The translations under genes were made by a program, and so were the position numbers. The notes beneath the pieces were generated by a model. That model ran no database searches. It was not told the origin of the DNA and was given only the letters and a program-made list of their open reading frames with translations. From contig CM059428.1 in the NCBI GenBank assembly GCA_030390025.1, forward strand, positions 168,454,001-168,518,000: a stretch of DNA of 64,000 bases, written 5' to 3'. The DNA comes from Squalus acanthias (lineage: Eukaryota). Shown one piece after another: positions 3,769 to 64,000 of the stretch; positions within the stretch are counted from its first letter, which is position 1; each line of letters starts with the position of its first letter.

Positions 3769-4036
3769 CTCTAACAGTTAAGGAAGCTGTTGTCTGTAGG
3801 TTCCCAGAATAACAAGTATATTTGCCGGCATCTCCTGGTTTCACATTGTGGATTAACAACTCAACAATGGCACCATTTTGTTTCATTTCGTACTTGTCGC
3901 TTGGTTGAAGCACTGCAAGTCTCTTTCTCCATTCCACAGGAGTATCAGGGCTTAGAAAGTTCACAGCGCAGTGTGACTGTCTGACCTTCTTCAACTTCCT
4001 CGTTCTGAAGCTCTTGTTTGAAATAGGCAGGTAAAG
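3769..4036 (-). pseudogene. OBSCN: Obscurin Ig exon (type 1) with +1 frameshift (268 nt)
   Basis: tcag|CT acceptor, AGAG|GTGAT donor. LPAYFKQELQNEEVEEGQTVTLRCELSKP, then an extra C (3948-3950 GGG on +) gives TGA; the domain continues in another frame (DTPVEWRK..TTASLTVR). Confidence 0.75.
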
Positions 4037-29273: not shown

Positions 29274-29540
29274 CATTAACTCTCAGAAAGGCAGAGGTCT
29301 GCTGATCACCACAAAAACAAGTGTAATCTCCGGTGTCTTCAACCTTCAGGCTGTGGATTAATAACTCAACAGTAGAACCTTTCTGCGCCATTTCATACTT
29401 CTCTCCAGGAACAAGGACTGCAGATCCCTGTCTCCATTCAACTGGAACATCAGGCTTAGTAAGCTCGCAGCAAAGTGCAACAGTACCATTCGCTTCAGCT
29501 TCTTTACTCTGAAGCTCTTGTTTGAAGAACACAGGTAAAA
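29274..29540 (-). CDS. OBSCN: Obscurin Ig exon (type 1, 267 nt)
   Basis: tccag|TT, AATG|GTAGG; LPVFFKQELQSKEAEANG.. Confidence 0.9.
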
Positions 29541-42896: not shown

Positions 42897-43163
42897 CCTT
42901 CACGCTTAAAGAGGCAGTAGTCTGTTGATCCCCAGAATAACAGGTATAGTCTCCACCATCTTCAGGTTTTAGGCTGTGGATGAGCAAATCAACACTGGAA
43001 CCTTCTTGTTTCAGTTCATACTTGTCACTAGGATGAAGTACCAGAGATCCCTTCCTCCATTTTACTGGGGCATCAGGTTTAGTAACCTCACAGTGTAGAG
43101 TGGCGGTGCCGCCCTCTTCAGCTTCCTCGTTCTGAAGTTCTTGTTTGAAAAGCACAGGCAGCG
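42897..43163 (-). CDS. OBSCN: Obscurin Ig exon (type 1, 267 nt)
   Basis: catag|CG, AAGG|GTAGG; LPVLFKQELQNEEAEEGGTATLHC.. Confidence 0.9.
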
Positions 43164-43579
43164 CTATGGAACACATTAAATTTGGTTTTTAATGATAATT
43201 AGTCAACATCCAAATCTTATTTCACAGTTTCCATACACAATTCGGATCTAACCTGCTGAAAATAATTCTCACAGTAAAAGCCCCAACAATCCATTACTAA
43301 ATTATTTTTCTCACTCACCAACGACCCCCCCCACCCCACCCCCCCCAAAAAAATTCAATAACCTACAAGTGAGGAGCACTGGCAGCCAGAAAGAGCTAAG
43401 TATTTATTTAAGTAATTATTCATCTGACTCTTACAATTTTTACTATACAATAGCTTCAGGGGGTAGGACAGAAAGAGATGTTCAAGACATATTAAGCAAA
43501 AATAATAAATTAGAGTAAATAGAAATAATTCAATAAACAATAACTTAAAAGGAACACCAGTTGGGTTAAATATATAAAT

Positions 43580-44760
43580 AGGTACGGCAGGATCAGAGTC
43601 TGAAGTGATGTGTGTGGCATGCATGACGTGGGCCTGCCTGGACTCACATACAATGCAGGGCGAACACATATGTACGAAGTGTACAAAGATTGCATTCCTC
43701 GAGCAAAAGGTTTCACAGCTTGAAAGTCAACTGAACACACTCCGCAACGTTTGGGAGAAAGAAAATTATTTGGATAAATGTTCCAGAGGGTGGCCACCCC
43801 ACAGGTTGCTAGGAGTAGAGAAGCTGGTAAAGGAGGCTAGGTGACCATCTGCAGTCAGAATAATCTCTGGAGCTGGATTTGTCTAATTACTGTAGTATAC
43901 GTGTTTAAGTACCAGTGATGTAGACAAAAAGAATGACACACAGAGGGGAACCACGAGCAACAGGCATTGAGGGGCAATTGGTTCCTCATGGAGCACAGTA
44001 CATGTAGTAAGAATAGACGAGCAGTGATTGTGGGGGATTTGAGAGTCAGAGGGGCAGATCGTTCATTTTGTAGATGTGATTCAGAGTCCCAAATGGTATG
44101 TTGCTTCCCAGGTCCAGAGTTTGAGATATTACGGAGTGAATACAAAAGGTTCTGCAATGGAAGGACAAGCAGCCAGAGGTCGTGGTTCATGTGGGACTCA
44201 ATGGCACAGATAGGAGTAGGTTTAAGATTCTACAAAAGGATTTAAAGCAGTTAAATGCTAGACTAAGAAGCAGAACTTCCAGGCTAGTAACCTCTGGATT
44301 ACTCCCAGTGTGACACGCTGAACAAGACAGGGAGAGAAAGATTAGGATTATCAAAGCTGGGCTGGAAGGATGATATAGAATTGAGTGTTTCAGATTCCTG
44401 GGATACTATGGCTAATTTTGGGTCCAGGAAAAGCTGTAAAGGCCTTCACTTAAACTGGAGAAGCACCCATGTCTTGCGGAAAGGGTAAAATGGGGAAAAA
44501 TGTAATCTAGTCAGGAGCTGGGAAGAGAAAATCCACACAGTAAGTTAAAAAGTGTGAGAAAAGGACCAACAGGACATATGGGCAGTATGGGGGCACTTAC
44601 CTAGATAAGAATTCTGTACACAAATATACATAGCATAAGAAATAAAACAGTGAGTTAGGAGCACAAATTCAGCTTGAAGGGTATGCTGCAGTAGCTATTA
44701 CAGAGACCTAGCTACAAGGTAGGCATGATTGGTGACTAAATATTCCAGGCTATAGGGTCA
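43580..44760 (+). mobile_element. Old CR1 LINE 5' part (ORF1 zinc-finger/leucine-zipper/esterase + start of ORF2 endonuclease)
   Basis: CVACMTW..HICTKC..LEQKVSQLESQL; AVIVGD; LYTNIHSIRNK..VAITET remnants. Confidence 0.7.
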
Positions 44761-46533
44761 GACATTAACTCCTCCAATCAGTCCATATCTACCACTTCAG
44801 TAGTTATGAACCAACCCAAATGAGTAAAGAGGGTCAAAGTTGCAACAGTCTCCACCTCTACTTCCTCAACCCTGAGGGCCACAAACAGGGACATTTATGG
44901 TGCCTAATTATAAATCGCCAGATCAGGCTCGATTACGACAACCATTCCAATGCTGCCTTCTACACAATCAAAACCACCTACTTCCCAGGATTACCCTGCA
45001 ATGTAAAGACAAAGTTCCACCATCACCTTCTCAGGGCAACTAGGAAGGAGCAATAAATGCCAGCCCTGCCAGTAATGGCCACATCCTGAGAATTAATTTC
45101 CTCCATAAATCCCTGTTCCCCAATCCTTACTCTCACTTCAAAAGCCAATCAAGAGGAGCTCATGGATTTCTTTAAATCAAAGGTGGAGACCATCCATACA
45201 GATGTATCCACCACCTCCTCGCCTCCTGTCTCTAATCACTCCTATGTTAAGGAGTCTGAAAGGAATTTCCTAAAGTTTTTCTTCAATTGGCCACCCTTTC
45301 TTTGGCTCCCCTGTAGATGGGTGGGTTGATGGATGGAGAAGGCTTGATTGTCTTTTTCCGCCCTTTTTTGTATGTTCTCTGATGTCCTCAAACCACTAAA
45401 CTAGATTACTGCTTCATATTATGATAGGTAATTTGTCTATCAAATAACCTACCACTCAACTCTCCATAAAGCCTAAGAACTTCCAAGACTTGAATACAGT
45501 TTCCGTATCTTGTGAGATTCTAGCAGCACCTCTACTGCACACTTGGACAGGATACACAGAAAAACTTGTCTTTCTCATCTCTTGTCTGCAACCACTGTCT
45601 CTCCTCATCTCAATCCTTCATTTCTCTCTCTCTATTTTATGAACGCTATGATCAGTGCTTTCCTGAATTTTCCTTTATTTTTCTTTGAATCTCCCAAATG
45701 CTCTTCAACAGACCTTTTTCCTCCCTGTTGCAATCAAGACTTATTACGATATATTCAGGCTTAAACCGCTTGCTTTTAAAATCCAAGTTTGGCATCATCT
45801 AATCAATGTTTTCTGTTTTACTTAATCTCCCCTTTTACTCTTTTAAACTTAAGTGCTGTTGTACATTATGGGCCTTGGCCTTTAATGTTGGTTTCTCAAT
45901 AAGGCGGCCAAGAAACTACTGTTGGTAATATTAGTGGACAAACGTACATGTTCTTAGAATATTTTCCATCTGCTATTTTAACTGCAGTGTTAATCATCTT
46001 ATTTTACATGAGTTAACGCCTCCATTGAAGTGGCAGATGGAAGAATGTCATACCAACATAATGGTCCAGAATTTGCTGGAGCAGGGCATCTCACGGCGTG
46101 CCTGTTAGAATTTTTCCTGCACCTTCATTACAAATTTTTTTTGCCCTGTAAGTTGCTGGAAGTGAGAGCTGATAACAGTGCAGCGAGGGCAGCAGAGCAC
46201 CTTGGTGAACAAAAGTGCCACGGGTGTATCTCCTTAACCAATGAGATTAAAGGATTGAGAAATAAACAGGAGAAGGAGGATAATTACAGTGGGTGAATTC
46301 AATATCAAATCAGGCACAGAAATAGAAATAAAGAGAGGGAAAGAAAGATTGGATTGGATTAAGAGAGAGATTATTAGTCCAGTAACGTAACCACAAGCTC
46401 ATACCCGTGCCTCATATTTCTCATCTACATGCTGCCTCTCGGCGACGTCATCCAAAAATGCAGCATCAGTTTCTACATGTAAGCTGACGAGACCCAGCTC
46501 TACCTCACCACCACCTCTCTCAATCCGACCACT

Positions 46534-49500
46534 GAGAGCAAATAATAAAAATGACAACAGAGAAGGTCATAGACTTAGGTAGCAGTGGGGAAATTAAAAA
46601 CCAGAGTGTGTCAGGAAGAGGCAGAAGGTATGGAGTAAAAGGTAAAGTAATAAAAAGGGCAAAAGCAGGAACTAAGTGTCACAAAACATATTTGAAAGTT
46701 CTCTATCTGAACGCACGTAGCATTCGTAACAAAATAGACGAGTTAATGGCACAAGTAACTACATATGGGTATGATCTTGTGGCTATTACAGAAACATGGC
46801 TGCAGGGTGACAATGCCTGGGAATTAAACATACCAGGTTATTTAACGATCAGGAAGGACAGGCAAGAAGGAAGGGGAGGTGGGGTGGCTATGTTAATAAA
46901 GGAAGGAATCACTGTAATACAGAGAAATGATATTGGGTCAAAAGATCAGGATAATGAAACAGTTTGGGTGGAGATATGGAATAATAAGGGGGAAAAACAC
47001 TGGTGGGCGTAGTCTATAGGTCTCTGAACAGTTGCAACTCTGTTGGACGGAGTATCAATCAGGAAATAGTTGAGGCATGTAATAAGGGAACATCTATAAT
47101 TATGGGGGATTTTAACTATCATATTAATTGGACAAATCAAATTGGGCAGGGCTGCCTTGAGGATGAGTTCATGGAGTGTATTAGGGATGGGTTTCTTGAG
47201 CAGTATGTAACTGAACCGACCAGGGGGCAAGCAACCTTAGATCTGGTCCTGTGTAACGAGACAGGATTAATTAAAAATGTCCTAGTAAAGGATCCCCTTG
47301 GAATGAGTGACCATAACATGGTTGAATTCCATATTCAATTCGAGGGTGAGAAGGTTGGATCTCAAACAAGCGTGCTAAGCTTGAATAAAGGAGACTATGA
47401 AAGTATGCGAGCGGAATTGAGTAGAGTGGATTGGGAAAATAGATTAAAGGGTAAGACGATACATGATCAGTGGTGTACATTTAAGGAGTTACTTTACAAG
47501 TTCCAAAAAATATATATTCCACTGAGAAGAAAAGGGTGTAAAAGAAAAGACAGTCATCCGTGGCTAAGTAAAGAAATTAAGGATAGTATTCGACTAAAAA
47601 CAAGGGCATATAAGGTGGCCAAATCTAGTGGGAGGATAGAGGATTGGGAAAACTTTAAAAGACAGCAAAAAATAACAAAAAGATTGATTAAGAAAGGGAA
47701 GATAGATTATGAAAGTAAATTAGCAAAAAATATAAAAACAGATAGTAAGAGTTTTTATAGTTATATAAAAAGAAAAAGGGTGGCTAAAGTAAATGTTGGT
47801 CCCTTAGAGGATGAGACCGGGAAATTAATGGTGGGAAATATGGAGATGGCAAATATACTGAATGAATATTTTGTATCAGTCTTTACAGAAGAGGACACTA
47901 AGAATATCCCAACACTGGACAAACAGGGGGCTATAGGGGGGGGGGGGGAGGAGCTAAACACGATCAAAATCACTAAGGAAGTGGTACTCGGTAAAATAAT
48001 GGGACTCAAGGCGGATAAATCACCTGGACCTGATGGCTTACATCCTAGGGTCTTGAGGGAAGTGGCGGTAGGGATTGTGGATGCATTGGTAATCATTTTC
48101 CAAAACTCCCTGGACTCAGCAAAGATCCCGGCAGACTGGAAAACTGCTAATGTAACACCCTTATTTAAAAAGGGCAGTGGACAGAAGGCTGGAAACTATA
48201 CACCGGTTAGCCTAACATCTGTGGTAGGTAAAATTTTGGAGTCCATTATTAAGGAGACAGTAACGGGACATTTGGATAATCATAATTTAATAGGGCAAAG
48301 TCAGCATGGTTTTATGAAGGGGAAATCATGTTTGACAAATTTGCTGGAGTTCTTTGAGGAAGTAACATACAGGGTGGATAAAGGGGAACCAGTGGATGTG
48401 GTGTATTTAGACTTCCAAAAGGCATTTGACAAGGTGCCACACAAAAGATTATTGCTTAAGATAAAAAATCACAGGATTGGGGGTAATATTCTGGCATGGA
48501 TAGAGGATTGGCTATCTAACAGAAGGCAGAGAGTTGGGATAAATGGTTCATTCTCAGACTGGCAATCAGTAACTAGTGGTGTTCCGCAGGGGTCAGTGCT
48601 GGGTCCCCAACTCTTTACAATCTATATTAACGATTTGGAGGAGGGGACCGAGTGTAACATATCAAAGTCTGCAGATGATACTAAGATGGGAGGGAAAGTA
48701 GTGAGTGAGGAGGACATAAAAAATCTGCAAGGGGACATAGACAGGCTAAGTAAGTGGGCAGAGATTTGGCAGATGGAATACAATACTGGAAAGTGTGAGG
48801 TTATGCACTTTGGCAGGAACAATAGTAGAGCAAGTTATTATCTAAATGGCAAGAAACTGGAAAGTACTGAAGTACAAAGGGATCTGGGGGTCCTGGTGCA
48901 CGAAACTCAAAAGGTTAGTATGCAGGTGCAGCAAGTGATTAAGAAGGCCAATGGAATGTTGGCTTTCATTGCTAGGGGGATAGAATGTAAAAATAGGGAG
49001 GTATTGCTTCAGTTGTACAAGGTATTGGTGAGACCGCACCTGCAAAACTGTATGCCGTATTCGTGTCCATACTTAAGAAAAGACATACTTGCTCTCGAGT
49101 CAGTACAAAGAAGGTTCACTCAGTTAATCCCGGGGATGAAGGGATGGACATATGAGGAGAGGTTGGGTAGATTGGGACTCTACTCATTGGAGTTCAGAAG
49201 AATGAGAGGCGATCTTATTGAAACATATAAGATTGTGAAGGGGTTGGATCGGGTGGATGCGGGGAAGATGTTCCCGATGATGGGTGAAACTAGAACTAGG
49301 GGGCATAGTCTTAGAATAAGGGGCTGCTCTTTCAAAACTGAGATGAGAAGGAACTACTTCACTCAGAGGGTGGTAGGTCCATGGAATATGCTGCCCCAAA
49401 AAGCTGTAGAAGCTACATCATTACATAAATTTAAAACAGAAATAGACAGTTTCCTAGAAGTAAAGGGAATTAAGGGTTACGGGAAGCGGGCAGGAATTTG

Positions 49501-49733
49501 GACATGAGTCTAGGTTCAGATCAGTCATGGCCCTGTGGGTAGCGTAGCGGGCCCAGGGGCCGTGTAGCCTGATCCTGCTCCTATTTCGTGTGTCCAATTC
49601 TGTTAGGTTCAGGAGAAGGTTCTGTGATAGTGGATTGGCGGTTAGGATCAGATCAGCCATGATCTTATTGAATGGCGGAGCAGGCTCGAGGGGCCAATTG
49701 GCCTACTCCTGCTCCTATTTCTTATGTTCTTAT
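46534..49733 (+). mobile_element. Young CR1 LINE truncated just upstream of ORF2
   Basis: ORF2 from ATG 46551: APE endonuclease (YLNARSIRNK, ITETW, GDFN, SDH) + RT. Near-identical to 63501-64000. Confidence 0.92.
46551..49507 (+). pseudogene. CR1 ORF2 (EN+RT) with a frameshift near 46995 and SADD in place of FADD
   Basis: ORFs 46551-47012 and 47003-49507. The A-run is 2 nt shorter than in the copy at ~63960. Confidence 0.85.
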
Positions 49734-50673
49734 GACTCTTAATTACCAGACTGCTTGTCTGACATCCAGTACTGGACGAGCAGAAATTTCATCCCACTAA
49801 ATATTGGGAAGACCAAAGCCACTGTCTTCGGTCCCCGCCACAAACTCCGTTCCCTACCCACTCCATCCCTCTTCCCTGGCAACTTTGAGGCTGAACCAGA
49901 TTGTTCGCAACCTTGGTGTCATAATTGACCCCAAAATGACCTTCTGACCACATATCCGCGCCATCACTAAGACCGCATATTTCCACCTCCGGAACATCGT
50001 CCAACTCTGCTCCTGGCTCAGCTCATCTGCTACAGAAACCCTCATCCAAGCCTTTGTTACCTCTAGGCTTGACTATTCCAACTCACTCCTGACATTCTAC
50101 CCTCTGTAAACTTGAGGTCATCCAAAACTCTGCTGCCCGTGTCCTAACTCTCACCAAGTCCCGTTCACCCATCGCCCCTGTGCTCGTTGACCTACATTGG
50201 CTCCTGGTTAAGAAACGCCTCGATTTTAAAATTCTCATTCTTGTTTTCAAATTCCTCCCTCTTTATCTCTTTAATCTCCTCCAGCCCCACAACCCTCAGA
50301 TATCTGCGCTTCTCTAATTCTGGCCTCTTGAGCATCCCCGATTTTAATCGCTCCACAATTGGTGGCCGTGCCTTCAGCTGCTAAGAGCCTAAGCTCTGGA
50401 ATTCCATCCCTAAACGTCTCTGCTTCTCTACCTCTCTTTCCTCCTTTAAGACGCTCCTTAAAACCTACACCTTTGACCAAGCTTTTGATCATCTGCCCTA
50501 AAATCTCCTTATGTGGCTCGGTGTCAGATTTTGTTTTATAACACTCCTGTGAAGCGCATTGGGACGTTTTACTACGTTAAAGGCGCTATATAAATACAAG
50601 TTGTGGGTGTTGTTGTTGTTGTATACGAAGTCTATGTTATCATGGGTGATCCTGTAAGAAAAATGCAGTGATT

Positions 50674-51126
50674 CATAGAAACATAGAAACTAGAAGCAGG
50701 AGTAGGCCATTCGGCCCGTCGAGCCTGCTCCACCATTCAATACGATCATGGCTGATCATCCAAATCCAGTACACTGTCCCTGCTTTCTCACACAGAATCC
50801 CCATCGAGCCTGCACCGACACATATCCCACCCTATCCCCGTAACCCCACGTATTTAATTCCCCCTAACATATCCCTTCCTATCCTATCCCCGTAACCCCA
50901 CATATTTAATCCCCCCCTAACACTAAGGGTCAATTTATCATAGCCAAATCAACCTAACCCGCACATTTTTGGACTGTGGGAGGAAACCGGAGCACCCGGA
51001 GGAAACCCACGCAGACACGGGGAGAATGTGCAAACTCCACACAGACAGTCACCCGAGGCCAGATTCGAACCCGGGTCCCTGGCGCTGTGAGGCACCAGTG
51101 CTAACCACTATGCCACCGTGTTGCCC
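50674..51126 (-). mobile_element. Full-length tRNA-derived V-SINE (HE1-like)
   Basis: Head GGGCAACACGGTGGCATAGTGG (A box)..GGTTCGAATC (B box), V-domain TGTGTGGAGTTTGCACATTCTCCCCGTGTCTGCGTGGGTTTCC, CR1-derived 3' tail. Confidence 0.8.
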
Positions 51127-51830
51127 TCATCCACTCCATTTGCCTTGTTTTCTGCTACAGATTCACATACTATGCTGCGCTGCAGACTTGTACTTGTGAA
51201 GCCCCCGTTTACTCCTTAGTGGGGATGAGTGTGAGCAGCTGAGGCTAAGCAAAAAGTTGTACTTCAGAACCACACGAGCTGCACGGGGCTTGAGAGATGA
51301 ATGTTGGCCTCCCTAGCCTACACTGTGAAGTTAAAAAAAATCTTTGTTCCCATCATCTTTACTTCCCTTTCATTAATGTCATGCAGCTCTCTTAATGCTC
51401 ACCCTACTTGTGTTAATAGCAGCAAAACTGTCTGTTCAATTATGCCTCCTAACATACAGCTCAGCACGAAAGCTAGACGATTTTCCATCTTCCCACAACC
51501 CGGCAAGCTGCTGCAAGGGGCGTTCATTTGACACCCGCAGCTCATCAGTGGCATTCAAATGAGGCCAAAACCAAAAATGGTTCGGGACTCCCGACGCGGG
51601 CTTTGGGCGGGCAGAGCAGCCACTCTGCAAACTTCTTGCCCCTTTCAGGAGGAAATCGAATTGCACGGCGTGTCTAAATTGTTGCAAAAATGTGCAGTAA
51701 AATTTAGAACTCTGAACTCAACATTTATGGACAATAAAGTTGACTGATGTGATGTCACACTCAATGAGACATCTCAAGTGATGAAAACTCAAGAGGGTTT
51801 AGTTACGGTGAATAATGGTTGTTGTCCTAC

Positions 51831-52096
51831 CCTTCACTTTTAAAGATGCAGTTGTCTCTTGATCTCCTGAATCGCAGGTATATTCTCCAGCATCTTCGAC
51901 TTTTAGGCTATGAATAAGTAACTCAACACAGGAACCCTTTTGCTTCATTTCATGCTTCTCGCTTGGATGAAGTACCACAGATCCCTTCCTCCATTCCACT
52001 GGGGCATCTGGTTTTGTGATCTCACAGTTCAGAATGGCAGTACCATCCTCTTCAGCTTCCTTGTTCTGAAGCTCTTGTTTGAAAAGCACAGAAGGG
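51831..52096 (-). pseudogene. OBSCN: Obscurin Ig exon copy T, 266 nt (1-nt deletion near the 5' end)
   Basis: + strand reads CACAGAAGGG where all sibling copies read CACAGGAAGGG; splice sites intact. Confidence 0.7.
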
Positions 52097-52827
52097 CTAC
52101 GGGAGACAGTAATTTAGTTCATGATGCTGTACTTCAGTTAGAATTCAAAGCTGATCTCTGAACATCCACAAAATTTGAAACAAGTTTGATTTGAGGAAGC
52201 TATTCACTATCAGGGTTCTGCTATCATTCCTAAACAGCCTGAGCCTGCTATCATGGTTGTTATTGGCATTAGAACAGCTGGATTGGATTACTCCATGCTG
52301 TTAAACTGACAAATTGCTACTTTCTTGCGTGTTAATTTCTGCCAGCCGGAACTGAAGAACGTGAACATGTTCAATAACAGTTGATGTATGTCATAAAATC
52401 ATATACAATAACCATGTCTAACAAGACAACTAGTCTCCTACACATTCCCATTTTAGTCTCGATCGACTGTATCACAAGCAGACACTTGCCATTTCTATGT
52501 AATTCCAGACTTTTCTGTAAAGCTTCATTAAATGTTCAATGCAGTTCAGAATATTTTTAACCAATGTATATACTAATATACATATACTAATATATTTCAA
52601 ACTAATGGGTAAAAAGAACACTATCTATAAATCTATGTTGCATTTTCCACCTCCCAAAAAGTGCTGACTTTCATAAAGTGTGGAGGTATTTTGATGTCAA
52701 ACAACAAAATAAAATATATTTTAACAAGAAATTCATATCGCCTGCAATTATGGATCAAGTGTTGGATAAAATCTTATGAGAAGACGGACAATAAATTAAT
52801 CATCAAGAATAACGATTGTTGTCCTAC

Positions 52828-53094
52828 CCTTCACTTTTAGCAAGCCCATTGTCTGCTGATCTCCTGAATCGCAGGTATATTCTCCAGCATCTTCAAGTTT
52901 CAGGCCATGAATAAGCAGCTCAACACAGGAACCCTTTTGCTTCATTTCATGCTTCTCGCTTGAATGAAGTACCACAGATCCCTTCCTCCATTCCACTGGG
53001 GCGTCTGGTTTTGTGATCTCACAGTTCAGAATGGCAGTGCCATCCTCTTCAGCTTCCTTGTTCTGAAGCTCTTGTTTGAAAAGCACAGGAAGGG
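52828..53094 (-). CDS. OBSCN: Obscurin Ig exon copy U (267 nt)
   Basis: cttag|CC, AAGG|GTAGG; ..HGLKLEDAGEYTCDSGDQQTMGLLKVK. Confidence 0.9.
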
Positions 53095-53799
53095 CTAAGG
53101 GAGACAGTAATTTAGTTCATGATGATGTACTAACTGAACACCCACAAAACCTCAAACAAGCTCACTAAAGGAAAACAATGTTTGAGGAAGCTATTCAATT
53201 TTTTGGTTCTGCTAGCATTCCTGAACATTGTTCTTACGGTTGTTGACCTTAGAATTGCTGGACTGGATTACACCTTGCTGGTAACTGACAAATTGCTACT
53301 TTCTTGTGAGCTGATTAATTTCTGTCAGACTGAACTGAAGAATGTTATAATTTGCTATAACAGTTTAAGCATGTCACAGGACCATACGCCCTAACTATGT
53401 CTGACGAGACAACTGGTCTCCTACCCATTCTTAATTTAGTCCATATCGAGTGCATCACAAGTAGACACTCCATATCGACGTAATTCCAGACTTCGCTGCA
53501 AGCTTCACAGAAAGTTGAATTTAGTTTAGAATACTTTTTCCAATGCATATACTAATATTTCAAACTAATGTCACACTAATGGGTAAAAAATATAGAACAT
53601 TGACTGTAAAATATATTGCAATTTCAATCTCCCAAAAAAGTGCTGGCTTTCATAAAATGTGGAGCTATTTAGAGCTAAAATATAACGTATAATTTGAACA
53701 AGGAAGCTATGTTGCCAACAATTATGGATAAAGTGTTGGATAAAATCTTGAGAGTATGGACAATAAACTATTCATTAACAGTATTGGTTGTTGTCCTAC

Positions 53800-54066
53800 C
53801 CTTCACTTTTAGGAAACCCATTGTCTGCTGATCCCCTGAATCGCAGGTATATTCTCCAGCATCTTCGACTTTTAGGCTATGAATAAGCAACTCAACACAG
53901 GAACCCTTTTGCTTCATTTCATGCTTCTCGCTTGAATGAAGTACCACAGATCCCTTCCTCCATTCCACTGGGGCATCTGGTTTTGTGATCTCACAGTTCA
54001 GAATGGCAGTGCCATCCTCTTCAGCTTCCTTGTTCTGAAGCTCTTGTTTGAAGAGCACAGGAAGGG
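53800..54066 (-). CDS. OBSCN: Obscurin Ig exon copy V (267 nt)
   Basis: Same splice sites; ..QQTMGFLKVK. Confidence 0.9.
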
Positions 54067-54393
54067 CTAAGGGAGACAGTAATTTAGTTCACGATGATGT
54101 ACTTCAGTTAGGGTTCAAAACTGATTTCTGAACACCCACAACATTTCAAACAAGCTCACTAAAAAAAACAATGTTTGAGAAGGCTATTCAATATAAGGGT
54201 GCTGCCACCTCAAAACCCTGAACTTGCGCTTATGGTTGTTGTTGTCCCTAGAACCGCTGAATTAGATTACTCCTGGATGCTAACTGACAATTGCTACTTT
54301 CTTGTGAGTTGATAATTTTTCTCAGCCTGAACTGAAGAACGTCACAATTTGCAATCACAGTTTACGTACGTCACAAAATCAAACACCATAACT

Positions 54394-54537
54394 GGTGTAA
54401 GGGAGTCAAGGGTTACGGGGAGGGGGCAAGGAAGTGGTGTTGAGGCCAAGATCAGATCAGCCATGATCTTATTGAATGGCGGAGCAGGCTCGAGGGGCCA
54501 AATGACCTACTCCTACTCCTGCAACTTATGTCTTATG
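54394..54537 (+). mobile_element. Short CR1 3' end marking the gamma intron (TSD TAACT); duplicated at ~59986-60130
   Basis: GATCAGCCATGATCTTATTGAATGGCGGAGCAGG..CTTATG; absent from alpha and beta introns. Confidence 0.8.
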
Positions 54538-54951
54538 TAACTACATCTAACAACACAACTGGTGTCCTACCCATTCTTAATTTAGTTCCTAATCAGTGCA
54601 TCACAAGCATTTCTTTATAATTCCAGACTTCTCTGCATAACTTTGTAAAAAGTTCAACGCAGTGCAGAATATTTTTTCCAATTTACATACTAATATATTT
54701 CAAATTAATGTCACACTAATGGTTAAAATAAATATAGAATACTGACTATATAACTATGTTGCAAGTTCCACCTACCAAAAAGTGCTGACTTTCATAATAA
54801 TATGTGCAGTTATTTTGGAATGAAACAAAAATTAAAATATCATTTGAACACGGAAGCCATATCGACAACAATTATAGATAAAGTGGTGGATAAAATCTTA
54901 AGAGAAGATGGACAACAAACTATTCGATAAGAGTATTGGTTGTTGTCCTAC

Positions 54952-55218
54952 CCTTCACTGTTAGCACGCCCATTGTCTGCTGATCTCCTGAATCGCAGGT
55001 ATATTCTCCAGCATCTTCGACTTTTAGGCTATGAATAAGCAGCTCAACACAGGAACCCTTTTGCTTCATTTCATGCTTCTCGCTTGGATGAAGTACCACA
55101 GATCCCTTCCTCCATTCCACTGGGGCATCTGGTTTTGTGATCTCACAGTTCAGAATGGCAGTGCCATCCTCTTCAGCTTCCTTGTTCTGAAGCGCTTGTT
55201 TGAAAAGCACAGGAAGGG
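54952..55218 (-). CDS. OBSCN: Obscurin Ig exon copy W (267 nt)
   Basis: Same splice sites; ..QQTMGVLTVK. Confidence 0.9.
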
Positions 55219-55791
55219 CTAAGGGAGACAGTAATTTAGTTAACGATGATGTACTTCAGTTAAGATTCAAAACTGATTTCTGAACACCCACAAAACCTCA
55301 AACAAGCTCACTAAAACAATGTTTGAGGAAGTTATTCAATTTTTTGGTTCTGCGAGCATTCCTGAACATTGTTCTTACGGTTGTTGACCTTTGACTTGCT
55401 GGACTGGATTACACCTTGCTGGTAACTGACAAATTGCTACTTTCTTGTGAGCTGATAAATTCAGTCAGCCTGAACTGAAGAATGTTATAATTTGCTATAA
55501 CAGTTTAAGTATGTCACAGGACCATACACCTTAACGATGTCTGACGAGACAACTGGTCTCCTACCCATTCTTAATTTAGTCCATATCGAGTGCATCACAA
55601 GTAGACACTCCATATCGACGTAATTCCAGACTTCGCTGCAAGCTTCACAGAAAGTTGAATTTAGTTTAGAATATTTTTTCCAATGCATATACTAATATTT
55701 CAAACTAATGTCACACTAATGGGTAAAAAATATAGAACGTTGACTATAAAATATATTGCAATTTAAATCTCCCAAAAAAGTCATAGTCATA

Positions 55792-56159
55792 GGGGGAAAA
55801 ATTCAGTTGGTTGCGTCTCCCATTAGCGCCTTAAGAGGGCGCTAATGGGGCGCAAAGCATCTAGCGCCCAGGCGCGGCGATGTTTGCGCCGCTCGCGAAA
55901 TTAACTAGACATTTTGCAGCGGCGCTAAACACTACCGCCACGATCTCCTGCGCCGGCAGATCGTGACGTCAGTCGAGTGCGCAGTGCCCTGGTATCGCCC
56001 CGGAGCACATATTGAGTGGCGCCCCCTGCCTTACCGCCTGACGCTAGCAACGACAGGTTGAGGGGAGCGAATTGCAGTCATGAAGGGACTGGGGGAGCGC
56101 TATTTAAAGGCGACCGCTTCCTGCCTTTTATTGTTGGTGCCATTTTTGAACCACGCATT

Positions 56160-56198
<39 letters not shown>

Positions 56199-56700
56199 CT
56201 GGAGAGATTCAACGCTGTGTGAAGGAGTTTTGGGTACTGAGCAGCACTTTGCAGGTTCATTTTGATTTGCCATCCCTTGTATCGATTTAGAAGAGACTGT
56301 GGCGGCTGCACTCTAAGCTCTTTCCCTGGTACTCTCCATTGTTCTTTCCAGCAGATTTGATGTGCAGGTCTCTCCAGGCAGAGATTCAAGGCTGCAATGA
56401 GCAGGATGTGGATGGAAAGCAAGATCAACCATCCCCTTTAAGAACTGGCCGGTGCCATTGTGTGTGTGTTCCATTGCTGACTGACATCACATGAGCTTCG
56501 CCAGCGCTCTGAGGTAGCGCCGCGCTCCTCGGCCTTTGCGCCTTAAGACAGGTGTGAAGCGCCCGATTTAGCGCTCCAATCACCTCCAGGGGCGATAAAA
56601 GTCAAGTTTGCAGTCGGTGGCGATAATTAGCGCCAGGCGCTAATCTTTGCGCCCGGCCGATAATTGCGCCCCAAATGGGGCGATACTGAATTTCTCCCCC
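55792..56700. mobile_element. Harbinger-like MITE, family 1 (TSD ATA)
   Basis: TIRs GGGGGAAAAATTCAG / CTGAATTTCTCCCCC, 3-bp TSD ATA; internal (GA)n at ~56162-56194. Confidence 0.85.
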
Positions 56701-56817
56701 ATAGAGTCATAACGGCACAGAAGGAGGCCATTTGGCCCATCGAGTCCGTGCTGGCTCTCTGAAGAGCAATCCAGTCAGTCCCATTCTCCCGCTCTATCCC
56801 CGTGGCCCTGCAAATTT

Positions 56818-57605
56818 GGGCGCGATCTTGCCAGCCCTGGGGAGGCGGGCTAGCCGGGAAAACGGCAGAATGTGGGGGCAGGTGCCCATCCCGCCTCCGT
56901 GCCATCTTCCCAGGAGGCGGGTCGCCGACCTGCGCCGGATCCCGTCTCCTGGAGGCGGGAAGGGGATTACAGCCACTTAACTGCCTGTTAACAGGTAGTT
57001 AACAGGCAGATAAGAGGATTATCCCCATTTTACCCACACAAGTGCGGGCTTCCCGGAGGCTGCGAACCCCGCCAGGGTCACCGAGGCGAGCAGTGGGTCT
57101 GCGGGGTGCAAAAGTGTGCTGTGAAGGTAAGTGAATGGTGCAAGTGTGGAGAGGTGAGTATATGAGGTAAGTGGAAAGTGTTAGAAAAAGTTTACTTACC
57201 TTTGTTTCTTCCTGCAGGCTTCAATTGTTGGGGATGCGGAGAGTCTCGCATCTCCGCGGCAGAGATGACAGATGGCTGCTGCATTCTCCAATGCAACAAC
57301 CATCTAATTTCTGCTAAAAAATGAGGTTTGATGAGTCTTGAATACAAGAACTCATCAAACTACAGAGAATGTCAGCGTTTGACAGCTTCACAGAGCTGTC
57401 AAACGATGACAATTCATCTGTCAATACGCTGACGTTCTCTGTAACCGGCTTCCCCTTAATTGGCCTGCTAAGCCCGCTGGGCGGGCTTAACAAGGTCAAT
57501 CAAGGGAAAATAGCGTGGGTTGGCCACAAGTCGATGGAGGCGGGACTAAAACCCGACAAGTGGGAGTCCTGCCTCCAAAAGCTCCCCATTGGCAAAATCC
57601 AGCCC
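56818..57605. mobile_element. Harbinger-like MITE, family 2 (TSD TTT)
   Basis: TIRs GGGCGCGATCTTGCCA / TGGCAAAATCCAGCCC; the empty site is visible at ~770-790. Confidence 0.85.
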
Positions 57606-58094
57606 TTTATTTCCCTCAAGTGCCTATCCAGTCTCCCCTTGGAAACATTGAGTGTCTCTGTTTCCACAACTTCCGTCGGCAAAGAATTCCAGGTCATCAC
57701 CACTCACTGCGTTAAAACGTTTTTCCTCACATCCTCCCTGTATCTCTTGCCCAAAAACTTAAATCTGTGACCCCTAGTCCTTGTACCATCAACTAGTGGG
57801 AACAGCCTTTCCCCGTCTAGCCTATCCAAACCCGTCATAATCTTGTACACCTCTATCAAATCACCCCTCAACCTCCTTTGCTCTAATGAAAACAAATCCA
57901 GCTTCTTCAACCTGTCCTTGTAGCTAAGATCCCCCATTACCAGGAACCATTCTGGTAAATCTCCTCTGCACCCACTCAAGGGCCTTCACATCCTTCCTAA
58001 AGTGTGGTGACCAGAACTGGATGCAATACTCCAGTTGTGGCCTAACCAGCGCTTTATAAAGGTTCAGCATAACTTCTCTACTTTTGTACTCAAT

Positions 58095-59040
58095 GGGGGA
58101 AAAATTGAGTCGCGCCCCCTTTGGGGTGCTAACTTCGCCGGGGCGTTACTTTTAGCGCCCCCAAAAAAATTAGCGCCGCCCACGGCCGAAATTCATCGGT
58201 AGCGCCCCAAGAGGGAAGCAGGGCGCTACTAGAAGCGCCCCGCCTCCCTCTTGGGGCGCTGTGAGGGGATATCGCGGCGCTACGTGCCGCAGTGCATGTC
58301 GCATCGCGGTACTGCAGGCCATCCTCCCCTTCTTAAAGGGGAGGGGCCTTGCGCAGCGCGACCCGGGGCCCAGCTGGGCCACCAGGGATCGGAGTGCAGG
58401 CAAAAGAGCCCAGCACTCAAGAGAAGTGCCGGGCTCACGGAGCTCAGCCGGCACTCCGCGGGGGGGCTGCAGGGGAGGCAGGAGACGGCAACGAGGGCAG
58501 GTGCTGGCAGGCGGCCAGCAACAAAAATGGCCGCCCGGCACCTCGCCTTTAATTAACACCGCCCTGGCCACAGGTAGACCCCCTTAACCCCGTCGGATAT
58601 AGCGTCCGGCGGTAAGTCAGGGGGTGCTACCGAAGATCGCAGTGCCGCGGGGCGCTAACGGTTACTGCCGCCGCTAACCTCCCGCTGAATTTCACGGGAG
58701 GCGTTGGCAGTGCCGCGCCCAGGCGCTAGTTGCTTTGCGCCCCATTAGCGCCCTCTTCGGTAGCGCCCCCTGACTGACCGCCGGACGCTATATCCGACGG
58801 GGTCAGGGGGGCCTTACTGTGGCCAGGGCGGTGTTAATTAAAGGCGAGGTGCCGGGCGGACATTTTTGTTGCTGGCTGCCTGCCAGCACCTGCCCCCGTT
58901 GCCGTCTCCGGCCTCCTCTGCAGCCCCCCCGCGGAGTGCCGGCTGAGCTCCGTGAGCCCAGCACTTCTCGAGTGCCGGGCTCTTTTGCCTGCACTCTTAG
59001 GGCGTTAACGGGAGGCGCAAAGCAAATGAATTTTTCCCCC
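58095..59040. mobile_element. Harbinger-like MITE, family 3 (ends shared with family 1), containing an internal inverted duplication
   Basis: TIRs GGGGGAAAAATTGA / TGAATTTTTCCCCC; GC-rich; TSD not clean (AAT/ATA). Confidence 0.75.
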
Positions 59041-59389
59041 ATAACCTCTATTTATGAAGCCCAAGGTCCCATATGCTTTGTTAACCACTCTCTCCATATG
59101 TCCTGCCACTTTCAGGGACCTATGCACATTAACTCCCAGGTCGCTCTGTCACTGCACACTCTTTAAAACTGTACCATTAAGTGTATATTGCCTATCCCTG
59201 CTCCTTCTGCCAAAATGCATCAGCTCACCCTTCTCTATATTAAATTCCATCTGCCACTTGTCTGCCCATTCTGCTAGCCTTTCTATGTCCTGTTGCAGTC
59301 GATTGGTATCATCACTGTTTGCCACACCCCCAAGTATGAGAAGATGGACATACTAAACTATTCATTAACAGTAATGGTTATTGTCCTAC

Positions 59390-59656
59390 CCTTCACTTTT
59401 AGGAAGGCCATTGTCTGCTGATTCCCTGAATCGCAGGTATATTCTCCAGCATCTTCAACTTTTAGTCTATGAATAAGCAACTCAATACAGGAACCCTTTT
59501 GCTTCATTTCATGCTTCTCGCTTGAATGAAGTACCACAGATCCCTTCCTCCATTCCACTGGGGCATCTGGTTTTGTGATCTCACAGTTCAGAATGGCAGT
59601 ACCATCCTCTTCAGCTTCCTTGTTCTGAAGCTCTTGTTTGAAGAGCACAGGAAGGG
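59390..59656 (-). CDS. OBSCN: Obscurin Ig exon copy X (267 nt)
   Basis: Same splice sites; ..SGNQQTMAFLKVK. Confidence 0.9.
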
Positions 59657-60542
59657 CTAAGGGAGACAGTAATTTAGTTCACGATGATGTACTTCAGTTA
59701 AGATTCAAAAACGATTTCTGAACACCCACAACATTTCAAAGAAGCTCACTAAAAAAACGATGTTTGAGAAGGCTATTCACCATCAGGATTCTGCCACCAT
59801 TCCTCAAAACCCTCAACTTGCACTTACAGTTGTTGTCCCTAGAACCGCTGAATTAGATTACTCCTGGATGCTAACTGACAAATTGCTACTTTCTTGTGAA
59901 TTGATAATTTTTCTCAGCCTGAACTGAAGAACGTCACAATTTGCAATCACAGTTTACGTATGTCACAAAATCAAACACCATAATTGGTGTAAGGGAGTCA
60001 AGGGTTATGGGGAGTGGGCAAGGAAGTGGAGTTGAGGCCAAGATCAGATCAGCCATGATCTTATTGAATGGCGGAGCAGGCTCGAGGTGCCAAATGACCT
60101 ACTCCTACTCCTGCATCTTATGTTCTTATGTAACTACATCTAACAACACAACTGGTGTCCTACCCATTCTTAATTTAGTTCCTAATGAGTGCATCACAAG
60201 CATTTCTTTATAATTCCAGACTTCTCTGCATAACTTTGTAAAAAGTTCAACGCAGTGCAGAATTTTTTTTCCAATTTATGTACTAATATATTTCAAATTA
60301 ATGTCACACTAATGGGTAAAATAAATATAGAATACTGACTATATAACTATGTTGCAAGTTCCACCTACCAAAAAGTGCTGACTTTCATAATAATATGTGG
60401 AGCTATTTTGGAATGAAACAAAAATTAAAATATCATTTGAACAAGGAAGCCATATCGACAACAATTATGGATAAAGTGTTGGATGAAATCTTGAGAAGAT
60501 GGACAACAAACTATTCGATAAGAGTATTGGTTGTTGTCCTAC

Positions 60543-60809
60543 CCTTCACTTTTAGCACGCCCATTGTCTGCTGATCTCCTGAATCGCAGGTATATTCTCC
60601 AGCATCTTCGACTTTTAGGCTATGAATAAGCAACTCAACACAGGAACCCTTTTGCTTCATTTCATGCTTTTCGCTTGGATGAAGTACCACAGATCCCTTC
60701 CTCCATTCCACTGGGGCGTCTGGTTTTGTGATCTCACAGTTCAGAATGGCAGTACCATCCTCTTCAGCTTCCTTGTTCTGAAGCTCTTGTTTGAAAAGCA
60801 CAGGAAGGG
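60543..60809 (-). CDS. OBSCN: Obscurin Ig exon copy Y (267 nt)
   Basis: Same splice sites; ..QQTMGVLKVK. Confidence 0.9.
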
Positions 60810-61541
60810 CTAAGGGAGACAGTAATTTAGTTCATGATGCTGTGCTTCTGTTATGGTTCAAAGCTGATTTCTGAACACCCACAAAATTTGAAACAAGCTT
60901 GATGTGAGGAAGCTATTCACTATCAGGGTTCTGCTATCATTCCTCAACAGCCTGAGCTTGCTATCATGGTTGTTATTGACATTAGAACAGCTGGATTGGA
61001 TTACTCCATGCTGTTAAACTGACAAATTGCTACTTTCTTGCGTGTTAATTTCTGCCAGCTGGAACTGAAGAACGTGAACATGTTCAATAACAGTTGATGT
61101 ATGTCATAAAATCATATACAATAACCATGTCTAACAAGACAACTAGTCTCCTACACATTCTCATTTTAGTCTCTATCGACTGCATCACAAGCAGACACTT
61201 GCCATTTCTATGTAATTCCAGACTTTTCTGTAAAGCTTCACTAAATGTTCAACGCAGTTCAGAATATTTTTAACCAATGTATATACTAATATACATATAC
61301 TAATATATTTCAAACTAATGGGTAAAAAGAACACTATCTATAAAGCTATGTTGCATTTTCCACCTCCCAAAAAGTGCTGACTTTCATAAAAGTGTGGAGA
61401 TATTTTGATGTCAAACAACAAAATAAAATATATTTTAACAAGAAATTCATATCGCCTGCAATTATGGATAAAGTGTTGGATAAAATCTTATGAGAAGACG
61501 GACAATAAATTAATCATCAAGAGTAACGATTGTTGTCCTAC

Positions 61542-61808
61542 CCTTCACTTTTAGCAAGCCCATTGTCTGCTGATCTCCTGAATCGCAGGTATATTCTCCA
61601 GCATCTTCAAGTTTCAGGCCATGAATAAGCAGCTCAACACAGGAACCCTTTTGCTTCATTTCATGCTTCTCGCTTGAATGAAGTACCACAGATCCCTTCC
61701 TCCATTCCACTGGGGCGTCTGGTTTTGTGATCTCACAGTTCAGAATGGCAGTGCCATCCTCTTCAGCTTCCTTGTTCTGAAGCTCTTGTTTGAAAAGCAC
61801 AGGAAGGG
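61542..61808 (-). CDS. OBSCN: Obscurin Ig exon copy Z (267 nt; protein identical to copy U)
   Basis: cgtag|CC, AAGG|GTAGG. Confidence 0.9.
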
Positions 61809-62513
61809 CTACGGGAGACAGTAATTTAGGTCACGATGATGTACTAACTGAACACCCACAAAACCTCAAACAAGCTCACTAAAGGAAAACAATGTTTGAG
61901 GAAGCTATTCAATTTTTTGGTTCTGCTAGCATTCCTGAACATTGTTCTTACGGTTGTTGACCTTAGAATTGCTGGACTGGATTACACCTTGCTGGTAACT
62001 GACAAATTGCTACTTTCTTGTGAGCTGATTAATTTCTGTCAGACTGAACTGAAGAATGTTATAATTTGCTATAACAGTTTAAGCATGTCACAGGACCATA
62101 CACCCTAACTATGTCTGACGAGAAAACTGGTCTCCTACCCATTCTTAATTTAGTCCATATCGAGTGCATCACAAGTAGACACTCCATATCTACGTAATTC
62201 CAGACTTCGCTGCAAGCTTCACAGAAAGTTGAATTTAGTTTAGAATACTTTTTCCAATGCATATACTAATATTTCAAACTAATGTCACACTAATGGGTAA
62301 AAAATATAGAACATTGACTGTAAAATATATTGCAATTTCAATCTCCCAAAAAAGTGCTGGCTTTCATAAAATGTGGAGCTATTTAGAGCTAAAATATAAC
62401 GTATAATTTGAACAAGGAAGCTATGTTGCCAACAATTATGGATAAAGTGTTGGATAAAATCTTGAGAGTATGGACAATAAACTATTCATTAACAGTAATG
62501 GTTGTTGTCCTAC

Positions 62514-62543
62514 CCTTCACTTTTAGGAAACCCATTGTCTGCT
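62514..62543 (-). pseudogene. OBSCN: 3' stub of a V-type Ig exon truncated by a CR1 insertion
   Basis: Matches 53800-53829 (..QTMGFLKVK G|GT), then switches abruptly to CR1 ORF1. Confidence 0.85.
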
Positions 62544-64000
62544 TGTGGGAGCCGGTGGACCCCACTGAGGCTCACGGCGATTACATCTGTGACAGGTGTC
62601 TGCTGCTACAGGATCTCCAGCTCCGTGTTGATGAGCTGGAGTCTGAGCTTCAGACACTGCGACACATCAGGGAGGGGGAGAAGTACCTGGACTCTGTGTT
62701 TCAGGAGGTGGTCACACCTATGAAGTTAATTAATTCAGATGTAGCCCATGGTCAGCGACAGGACGGTGTGACTACGAGTGAGGCAGGTACGGGGATCCAG
62801 GAGGTAGTGTTGGAGGAGCCGCAGCCCTTGCTCTCGTCCAACAGGTTTGAGGTTCTTACTCCCTGTAGGGGACAGGAGCAGGGACTGCAGGGAGGATGAG
62901 CAACTTGGCCACAGCACCGTGGAACGGGGGGCCATTCAAGAGGGGGGAGTAAATAGAAATGTTGTAGTGGTAGGGGATAGTATTATTAGGGGGATAGATA
63001 AGAGTTCTCTGCAGCCGAGAGCGAGAGTCCCGTAGGCTGTGTTGCCTGCCCGGTGCCAGGGTTAAGGACATCTCCTCTGGGCTGGAAAGAAACTTGCAGT
63101 GGGAGGGGGTGGATCCAGTTGTCGTGGTCCATGTTGGTACAAACGACGTAGATAGGACAAGAAAGCCGGTTCTGTTAAAAGAGTATGAGCAGCTAGGGGT
63201 CAAATTAAAAAACAGAACCTCAAGGGTAATAATCTCTGGATTATTACCTGAGCCACGAGCGAATTTGGCAAGGACAAATAAAATTAGAGAGTTAAATGAG
63301 TGGCTCAAAGTCTGGTGTGGGAGAAATGGGTTTTGCTTCCTGGGACACTGGCATCAGTACTGGGGCAGGAGGGAGCTGTTCCGTTGGGACGGGCTTCACT
63401 TGGCCAGTGCTGGGACTAGAGTCCTGGCGGATCATATAACTAGGGCTGTAGAGAGGGCTTTAAACTAACTAGTTGGGGGGGGGGGGGGGGGGAGGATCCT
63501 AGAGAGCAAATAATAAAAATGACAACAGAGAAGGTCATAGACTTAGGTAGCAGTGGGGAAATTAAAAACCAGAGTGTGTCAGGAAGGGGCAGAAGGTATG
63601 GAGTAAAAGGTAAAGTAATAAAAAGGGCAAAAGCAGGAACTAAGTGTCACAAAACATATTTGAAAGTTCTCTATCTGAATGCACGTAGCATTCGTAACAA
63701 AATAGACGAGTTAATGGCACAAATAACTACATATGGGTATGATCTTGTGGCCATTACAGAAACATGGCTGCAGGGTGACAATGCCTGGGAATTAAACATA
63801 CCAGGTTATTTAACGATCAGGAAGGACAGGCAGGAAGGAAGGGGAGGTGGGGTGGCTATGTTAATAAAGGAAGGAATCACTGTAATACAGAGAAATGATA
63901 TTGGGTCAAAAGATCAGGATAATGAAACAGTTTGGGTGGAGATAAGGAATAATAAGGGGAAAAAAACACTAGTGGGCGTAGTCTATAGGCCTCTGAACAG
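62544..64000 (+). mobile_element. Nearly full-length CR1 LINE (ORF1 ZF/LZ + SGNH esterase; ORF2 from 63519), running off the window
   Basis: YICDRC..LQLRVDELESEL, VVVVGDSIIRG, VVVHVGTND, DGLHL. ORF2 start near-identical to 46551; two apparent frameshifts in ORF1. Confidence 0.9.

What the first reader, a model, noticed from the sequence alone, without database searches (positions are those of the whole stretch)
51831..62543. Recent, still-evolving tandem amplification of an obscurin Ig exon with a higher-order repeat and exon birth-and-death
Seen: eight near-identical exon copies spaced ~1 kb apart, with homologous introns of three recognisable types. In + order: T-alpha-U-beta-V-gamma-W-beta-X-gamma-Y-alpha-Z-beta-(V stub). 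This is a ~3.12-kb trimer (acceptor T 52096 to acceptor W 55218) with an extra beta-gamma pair. W has a Y-type exon next to a beta-type intron, which looks like an unequal-crossover chimera. U and Z encode identical protein. The amino-acid differences cluster in the last strand (TASL/MGLL/MGFL/MGVL/MAFL). Two of the eight copies look damaged. Inference: a satellite-like coding array that changes the length of a giant sarcomeric protein. Since all exons are phase 1-1, any subset can be skipped in frame, so it may work as a copy-number-variable or splice-tunable molecular ruler, and dead copies are tolerated.
Basis: partly seen in the sequence, partly recalled or inferred. Interest (0 to 1): 0.78.

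Follow-up and report, generated by a model that had tools for sequence, protein, structure and literature searches.

The report
Self-copying exon array in shark obscurin
Part of a shark's giant muscle gene obscurin is a run of eleven almost identical exons built from nested repeats, and some other sharks carry their own look-alike runs at the same spot, likely because the exons keep recombining with and overwriting one another; whether this changes the protein's length in muscle is untested.

Summary
The array is real and larger than reported: 11 near-identical 267-nt phase 1-1 Ig exons plus a stub, in OBSCN (minus strand), running 8.7 kb past the window. It is nested. An old alpha-beta-gamma trimer has introns 17-22% apart but exons only ~3% apart. 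A six-unit block was then duplicated (copies 0.7-3.6% apart); one copy lost a unit by exon-exon crossover (chimera W), the other lost ~2 units at a CR1-type LINE (the 'stub'). It is not unique. At the same position catshark has 11 and sawshark 8 species-specific look-alike domains, white shark 2 single ones, and a ray amplified the next domain. Array domains are ~95% alike within species but 82-91% between, about like flanking single-copy orthologues. Best reading: a recurrent hot spot of unequal crossover and exon-centred conversion, with modest purifying selection. T's frameshift may be an assembly error. Exon inclusion, copy-number variation and any 'ruler' role are untested; a haplotype merge of the youngest duplication is not excluded (~15%). 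Human obscurin's homologous cluster was noted in 2001, nebulin and titin repeat blocks are known, and this scan found a similar array in cat obscurin (e1-9330148).

The parts
51831..52096 (-). Exon T: last array exon in gene order; 266 nt (one base short near the acceptor); keeps the old TASL-type tail and a unique donor-side intron
   Evidence: first 76 aa identical to Y, last 10 aa 60%
52097..52827 (-). alpha intron (731 nt)
52828..53094 (-). Exon U, intact I-set Ig exon, identical to Z
   Evidence: PF07679 E=1.4e-13
53095..53799 (-). beta intron (705 nt)
53800..54066 (-). Exon V, intact
54067..54951 (-). gamma intron; a ~145-nt retroelement 3' end (about 54394-54537) is shared by all three gamma introns, so it predates the repetition of the trimer
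54952..55218 (-). Exon W, intact, chimera of a Y-class and a U-class unit (one unit lost by crossover in or beside the exon)
55219..59389 (-). beta-prime intron with a transposon cluster; about 55793-56700 is an extra insertion found only in this copy
59390..59656 (-). Exon X, intact (1 nt from B, beyond the window)
59657..60542 (-). second gamma intron (886 nt)
60543..60809 (-). Exon Y, intact
60810..61541 (-). alpha intron above Y: more C-like up to ~61250, T-like beyond; likely junction of the second-level duplication
61542..61808 (-). Exon Z, intact
61809..62511 (-). beta intron above Z (703 nt; 1.0% from the U-V beta intron)
62512..62543 (-). Stub S: last 32 nt and donor of a V-class exon, cut by the LINE
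62544..64000 (+). Window part of a 4.15-kb CR1-type LINE (class name recalled; esterase-type ORF1, then an RT-type ORF2 with breaks), antisense to the gene, standing where about two array units are missing. It ends at extended 66693. Beyond it, outside the window (G000:C4:168520799-168526747), lie intact exons A 66799-67065, B 70349-70615, C 71504-71770 and D 72481-72747 with the second copy of the transposon cluster
   Evidence: (PF13472)

Best explanation
This is a nested tandem array of single-Ig exons in the middle of the shark obscurin gene that likely grows, shrinks and stays uniform by unequal crossover and exon-centred gene conversion, at a position that has likely been amplified separately in several shark lineages. 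SHOWN: 11 full exons plus a stub; an alpha-beta-gamma trimer with old introns; a younger duplicated block; one crossover chimera; one LINE-associated loss; species-specific look-alike domains at the same position in catshark and sawshark proteins. INFERRED: each ~1-kb unit is a self-contained in-frame cassette, so gains and losses keep the reading frame. The exon and ~70 nt of acceptor-side intron stay alike enough to keep pairing out of register, while the rest of the intron drifts. Exchange tracts tend to stop near the donor end, so the last ~10 residues travel with the donor-side intron and tag ancestry. The intact exons are likely spliced in as optional cassettes, as in the matching human segment. 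Each would add ~4 nm to a flexible linker, and their number is probably only loosely constrained. UNTESTED: inclusion in mRNA, copy-number polymorphism and any effect on muscle.
For: Introns are 17-22% apart between classes, against 3.3% over all exon sites and 8.8% at four-fold sites (28 sites per pair); divergence falls to 8-12% in the last ~70 nt before the acceptor and to 0-10% inside the exon. W switches class across its exon, and Y's alpha intron switches from C-like to T-like. Mean amino-acid identity within the arrays is 95.0 (this genome, 11), 95.5 (sawshark, 8) and 94.4 (catshark, 11). Between species it is 91.1 and 82.3, against 92.1 and 86.6 for 10 flanking orthologues. In a quick tree of 127 domains, most flanking domains group by position and array domains mostly by species. 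The TASL-tailed and TMA.L-type domains are separate in white shark and zebra shark (87% and 79% over the first 76 aa) but 97-100% alike there in this genome, sawshark and catshark. Variants among the 10 intact exons are 12 synonymous to 14 non-synonymous, P 0.003-0.06 depending on the transition bias assumed; mean pairwise dN 0.023, dS 0.109. Contigs on the exon have 4.5-11 times the depth of the unique flank in 4 of 4 runs (3 samples, 2 organisms), and all three intron classes are covered in both organisms. Human exons 48-56 of the matching segment are developmentally skipped.
Against: The AU test did not reject keeping the five TASL-tailed domains together on the first 76 columns (p=0.086; identical rows were left free). 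The excess of incompatible site pairs (24 of 120) was reached in 28 of 298 recombination-free simulations under strong rate variation (3 of 300 and 1 of 300 under weaker), and the fitted rate variation was stronger still. Synonymous sites can evolve more slowly than introns without any conversion. In the tree, array exons Y, C and W group with the sawshark copies rather than with U, V and B, and 66 of 120 branches are open. The comparison proteins are predicted isoforms of at most ~8000 aa, so their counts are lower bounds. No run examined is from the window's individual, and no listed contig spans the array.
Confidence: 0.72

Rival explanations
1. Duplication plus purifying selection only: the trimer arose long ago, and its exons stayed alike because protein and splice signals are constrained, with crossovers changing number but little conversion.
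For: dN/dS is about 0.21. Four-fold sites are still 8.8% apart between classes. 11 of 16 informative exon sites are compatible with the intron classes. The AU test was not significant.
Against: Equivalent old paralogues in zebra shark and white shark diverged to 74% and 84% mean identity. T matches Y over 76 aa despite its older tail. A further sawshark domain is 92% like the array over its first 76 aa but 84% and 70% like its own orthologues.
Confidence: 0.13
2. The youngest (second-level) duplication is an assembly artefact that placed two haplotypes in tandem; the real array has about seven exons. This rival concerns only that layer and is compatible with the older trimer.
For: Block copies differ by only 0.7-3.6%, near the 0.8% (4 of 490) between the window and organism A in the unique flank. 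Intron contigs in organism A have only about 1.2-2.2 times flank depth (a weak measure). Single-base frameshifts suggest imperfect polishing.
Against: There is no N gap in 462 kb. The two copies differ by three separate structural events within ~10 kb. The near-identical same-strand pairs lying close together in 462 kb fall mostly in the two Ig arrays, the rest being dispersed repeats. Catshark also has 11 copies, and organism B's exon contig has 11 times flank depth.
Confidence: 0.15
3. Adaptive length tuning ('ruler'): selection favours particular copy numbers or splice patterns because they set a sarcomere or M-band-to-reticulum distance.
For: Amplification recurs in the same segment across sharks, a ray and mammals. 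The human segment is developmentally regulated. The exons show purifying selection.
Against: Counts vary from 2 to 11 among sharks. Several neighbours are broken or absent here. Comparable titin repeat variation is called likely benign. The passages read describe obscurin as a linker, not a ruler.
Confidence: 0.15

Closest known systems
Human OBSCN Ob36-42 cluster, exons ~45-58 (Young 2001 PMC2196875, passages read; Oghabian 2025 PMC11871629, passages and exon table read)
   Same: Same gene and same segment: exon lengths for Ig22-36 match the human table except two exons of 270 nt where human has 273 and 267. One Ig per phase 1-1 exon; high similarity, ascribed to recent duplication; developmental skipping in human.
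   Different: Human domains are 72-90% alike and show no super-repeat per Young 2001. Here they are ~95% alike, with a trimer and a second-level repeat, and the segment has 34 exon positions (6 broken) against 17 human domains.
Nebulin triplicate region and titin segmental duplication (PMC9142044, abstract and passages read)
   Same: Multi-exon block repeated at high identity inside a giant sarcomeric gene.
   Different: Those are shown to vary in copy number in people; variation is untested here. Here the unit is nested and interrupted by transposons.
Elephant shark connectin/titin Ig super-repeats (PMC12241362, first fifth of text read)
   Same: Lineage-specific multiplication of Ig-exon sets in a cartilaginous fish muscle giant.
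   Different: Different gene; 6- and 10-Ig super-repeats with expression data. The part read says nothing of near-identity or homogenisation.
Obscurin arrays in other annotated genomes (catshark P0163, sawshark P0164, Narcine P0181, Callorhinchus P0005, horse P0196, bear P0176, fox P0016)
   Same: Species-specific near-identical Ig runs in the same segment; period 3 in catshark and fox.
   Different: Seen here only as predicted proteins, with no introns; different founder domains and counts.

Membership tests
Vertebrate obscurin (OBSCN) | Long tandem of I-set Ig domains, one per phase 1-1 exon | tested here: met
   85 Ig profile hits on the minus strand over 462 kb, split exons counted separately; splice sites; PF07679
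Vertebrate obscurin (OBSCN) | Exon-length pattern of human Ig22-36, including the split Ig26 (113/154) and Ig27 (162/105) | tested here: met
   against Table 2 of PMC11871629; split exons counted by hand from the printed sequence; two exons differ by 3 nt
Vertebrate obscurin (OBSCN) | IQ motif, obscurin SH3 and C-terminal kinase (absent from OBSL1; recalled) | tested here: met
   IQ PF00612 and Pkinase; SH3 hits PDB 1v1c obscurin, E=2.6e-31
Vertebrate obscurin (OBSCN) | DH-PH RhoGEF after the SH3 | tested here: met
   Indirect: sawshark obscurin, which carries PF00621 and PF00169, aligns exon by exon and in order through that part at 81-100%; no direct Pfam scan of these exons
Concertedly evolving tandem array | Copies closer within species than between, while flanks behave as orthologues | tested here: met
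   94-96% within against 82-91% between; tree, with weak support inside the array clade
Concertedly evolving tandem array | Direct signs of ectopic exchange (chimeric units) | tested here: met
   W and Y-alpha switch class; T
Concertedly evolving tandem array | Statistical excess of recombination or conversion within exons | tested here: inconclusive
   four-gamete 24 of 120, null reached it in 0.3-9% of simulations; AU p=0.086
NEB-TRI / TTN-SD type intragenic copy-number variant | Multi-exon block repeated at high identity | tested here: met
   95.7-97.7% over 0.9-5.4 kb
NEB-TRI / TTN-SD type intragenic copy-number variant | Copy number differs between individuals | not testable with these tools
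   only contigs of other individuals; depth is no copy number
Molecular ruler (titin/nebulin sense) | Protein length sets a sarcomere dimension | not testable with these tools
   no expression or structural data; PMC2196875 proposes a flexible linker
Mutually exclusive exon cluster (Dscam type) | One exon of the cluster per transcript | not tested
   no docking-site search; catshark and sawshark predicted isoforms include the copies in series

The most novel reading that the evidence does not exclude
One obscurin exon position has been a standing recombination hot spot across sharks: each lineage rebuilds and overwrites its own higher-order Ig array there, absorbs neighbouring ancient exons up to their last ten residues, and segregates copy-number and splice variants that tune the length of obscurin's linker in a muscle-specific way.
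Probability: 0.2. Interest if true: 0.68.

Novelty: new variant of a known kind. Interest (0 to 1): 0.42.

Why it matters
It shows at nucleotide level how a giant modular protein gains and loses domains: old introns, young-looking exons, a chimera and a transposon-killed unit, all in 21 kb. It also shows that the obscurin cluster noted in humans in 2001 is a recurrent hot spot across cartilaginous fishes and mammals. In practice, domain-by-domain orthology, Ig numbering, short-read assembly and variant calling in this segment of OBSCN are unreliable across species. Sharks with 2 versus 11 copies offer a natural test of whether obscurin's length matters.

Tried and rejected
PENTAMER: my first reading of the repeat unit was dropped because A's donor-side remnant is alpha-type. 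RNA: no RNA holder was listed, which says nothing about expression. READS: one search was swamped by transposon matches and its tables were cut, so T's deletion, the W junction and the LINE junction were not checked in other individuals. An organism-A alpha contig stops aligning 8 letters early, exactly at T's indel, but it may come from another copy. OTHER PLACES IN THE GENOME: one search found no copy outside this locus of G000:C4 (34 of 34 candidates scored; a lower bound). DROPPED ROWS: the left anchor failed (identity under 58%) in 14 of 32 proteins. Catshark and sawshark were then read by hand; the other 12 were dropped from segment counts. Of the 18 anchored proteins, 6 had a cluster of 5 or more domains at 90% or above, and 6 had none. 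LOST NEIGHBOURS: no remnant of the two domains that follow the TASL domain in white shark was found between 43.3 and 51.7 kb. TREES: the careful tree did not finish, so the quick tree is reported; the AU test was not significant. LITERATURE: searches listed no paper on homogenised or higher-order obscurin arrays, or on shark obscurin. One search was spoiled by the word 'obscuring', only the top 15-25 rows of large result sets were seen, most subscription journals are not held, and no supplements were read. No fold or complex job was run, because the Ig fold is not in doubt.
Full report
Coordinates above 64000 are extended: G000:C4 position minus 168,454,000. I fetched about 200 kb on each side of the window; the 462 kb hold no N.

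THE GENE. The minus strand carries 85 Ig profile hits. Array exon U is an I-set domain whose best single-domain PDB hits are obscurin Ig domains. Downstream lie an IQ motif and a kinase exon and an SH3 exon that hits only PDB 1v1c, obscurin. Sawshark obscurin aligns exon by exon and in order. Exon lengths upstream of the array match human Ig22-36 in Table 2 of PMC11871629, including both split domains, with two 3-nt exceptions. The array therefore lies in the segment that follows Ig36. Flanking domains are 92% like sawshark and 87% like catshark, so the source is a shark; I did not identify it further.

THE OBSERVATION. In + order: T-alpha-U-beta-V-gamma-W-beta'-X-gamma-Y-alpha-Z-beta-stub-[LINE]-A-beta'-B-gamma-C-alpha-D. 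Ten exons are intact 267-nt phase 1-1 cassettes with AG and GTAGGA signals, and T is 266 nt. The array, however, continues to 72747.

LAYERS. Introns fall into three classes, 17-22% apart between and 1-6% apart within. All three gamma introns share a retroelement fragment, so it predates the repetition of the trimer. A's short donor-side remnant is alpha-type, so the younger unit is two trimers, the second with a transposon cluster in beta. Matching blocks of the two copies differ by 7 of 1002, 9 of 574, 41 of 2634, 23 of 1206 and 36 of 997 bases. Y's alpha intron is more C-like below ~61250 and T-like above, as expected at an unequal-crossover junction. One copy lost a unit: W is Y-class on its donor side, mixed in the exon and U-class from 55244 on. 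The other lost about two units at a 4.15-kb LINE (62544-66693). Its nearby sister copy at 46.5-49.7 kb differs by 1.8%, so the insertion is about as young as the duplication (inference).

EXONS AGAINST INTRONS. Between classes, exons differ at 3.3% of sites and 8.8% of four-fold sites. The low zone reaches ~70 nt into the acceptor-side intron. Variants among intact exons are 12 synonymous to 14 non-synonymous (P 0.003-0.06), and 5 of the 14 lie in the last 10 codons. The tail type largely follows the donor-side intron class, so it is probably hitch-hiking, not diversification (inference). Incompatible site pairs are 24 of 120, which is suggestive only.

IS IT REAL? Contigs from 4 runs (3 samples, 2 coded organisms) were laid on 51.4-64 kb. 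Exon contigs had depths of 45, 82, 116 and 167 against 10, 13, 21 and 15 for the unique flank. Alpha, beta and gamma introns were covered in both organisms. The trimer array is thus no artefact. Those runs are not the window's individual (organism A differs at 4 of 490 flank bases), no listed contig spans the array, and depth is no copy number. The youngest duplication could therefore still be merged haplotypes (~15%). Four nearby frameshifts (T, extended 83.7k, 74.5k, 3.95k) are all one-base changes in short runs, and the 3.95k exon has an intact sawshark orthologue at 90-93%, so T may be intact. The stub, the remnant at 73.06k and the interrupted exon at 80.6-81.0k are structural losses.

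OTHER SPECIES. One search returned named full-length obscurins, the listed ones all predicted isoforms under ~8000 aa. At the same position catshark has 11 near-identical domains with a period-3 pattern, sawshark 8, white shark 2 single domains and zebra shark 4 diverged ones. Narcine has 11 copies of the next domain, and a Callorhinchus fragment has its own near-identical repeats, 79% like U. Within-array identity is 94-96%. Between species it is 91% (sawshark) and 82% (catshark), near or below the flanking orthologues at 92% and 87%. The TASL-tailed domain is distinct from its neighbour in white shark and zebra shark, but matches the array over its first 76 residues in three species. The formal clade test was not significant (p=0.086), and the tree is weak inside the array. 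Beyond sharks, clusters at 90% or above in this segment include horse 13, bear 9+4, cow 9, fox 6, jaguar 5 and human 3. Six of 18 anchored proteins had none, and 12 of 32 were dropped for a failed anchor.

MECHANISM. Shown: the nested structure, chimeras, losses and species-specific arrays. Inferred: in-frame one-domain cassettes make gain and loss cheap; the conserved exon is the pairing site for out-of-register exchange; exchange keeps exons young while introns age; selection removes most damaging changes. By human precedent, the intact exons are likely optional cassettes, since exons 48-56 are less included after birth (PMC11871629). At ~4 nm per Ig (PMC2196875), ten exons would add ~40 nm to what that paper calls a plausible flexible linker. 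Nothing here shows a ruler.

WHAT IS KNOWN. Young 2001 described two clusters of 72-90% identical domains, ascribed them to recent duplication and saw no super-repeat (passages). Titin and nebulin carry repeated exon blocks with copy-number variation (PMC9142044, abstract and passages). A 2026 review showed nothing on repeat homogenisation in the passages seen (PMC12812942). Elephant shark titin has lineage-specific Ig super-repeats (PMC12241362, first fifth). Eight searches listed nothing on homogenised obscurin arrays or on shark obscurin; subscription papers and supplements were not seen and may bear on this.

VERDICT. A real and well-resolved example, with a higher-order structure not described for obscurin in what I read, of a known kind: repeated exon blocks in giant muscle genes. 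New variant of a known kind; interest 0.42.

Noticed in passing
G000:C4 extended 81,300-100,500 (L002-L004): A second young array in the same gene: a two-exon unit in three copies, blocks 2.4-3.7% apart, one exon frameshifted. Single-copy in the sawshark and catshark proteins.
   Followed up: partly
G000:C4 extended 182,100-196,400 (L013-L014): N-terminal Ig pair duplicated; two domains differ at 2 residues. This is the other obscurin hot spot: 14 near-identical domains in fox, 13 in cow, 12 in horse, 10 in Xenopus.
   Followed up: partly
window 3769-4036; extended 74453-74720 and 83647-83912: Ig exons with one-base frameshifts in short runs; the 3.95k exon's sawshark orthologue is intact. Possible consensus errors.
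   Followed up: partly
extended 72959-73060 and 80586-80985: A truncated Ig exon remnant and an exon interrupted by unrelated sequence, just upstream of the array.
   Followed up: partly
window 43162-51830: Two Ig domains that follow the TASL domain in white shark and zebra shark have no trace here; the intron holds LINEs.
   Followed up: partly
window 29274-29540: Intact Ig exon with no clear orthologue in the five elasmobranch proteins; long branch.
   Followed up: no
window 46534-49735 and 63502-64000 (extended to 66694): Two copies of one young LINE family, 97.8% alike; the first holds an 839-codon open frame.
   Followed up: partly
P0164 residues 3796-3884 (sawshark): A domain beyond the array seems partly overwritten by array sequence: 92% like the array over its first 76 aa, with the tail of its own orthologues.
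   Followed up: partly
P0013 (lamprey S4RHS9): A three-Ig unit repeated about 11 times at 90% or above; whether it is obscurin was not checked.
   Followed up: no
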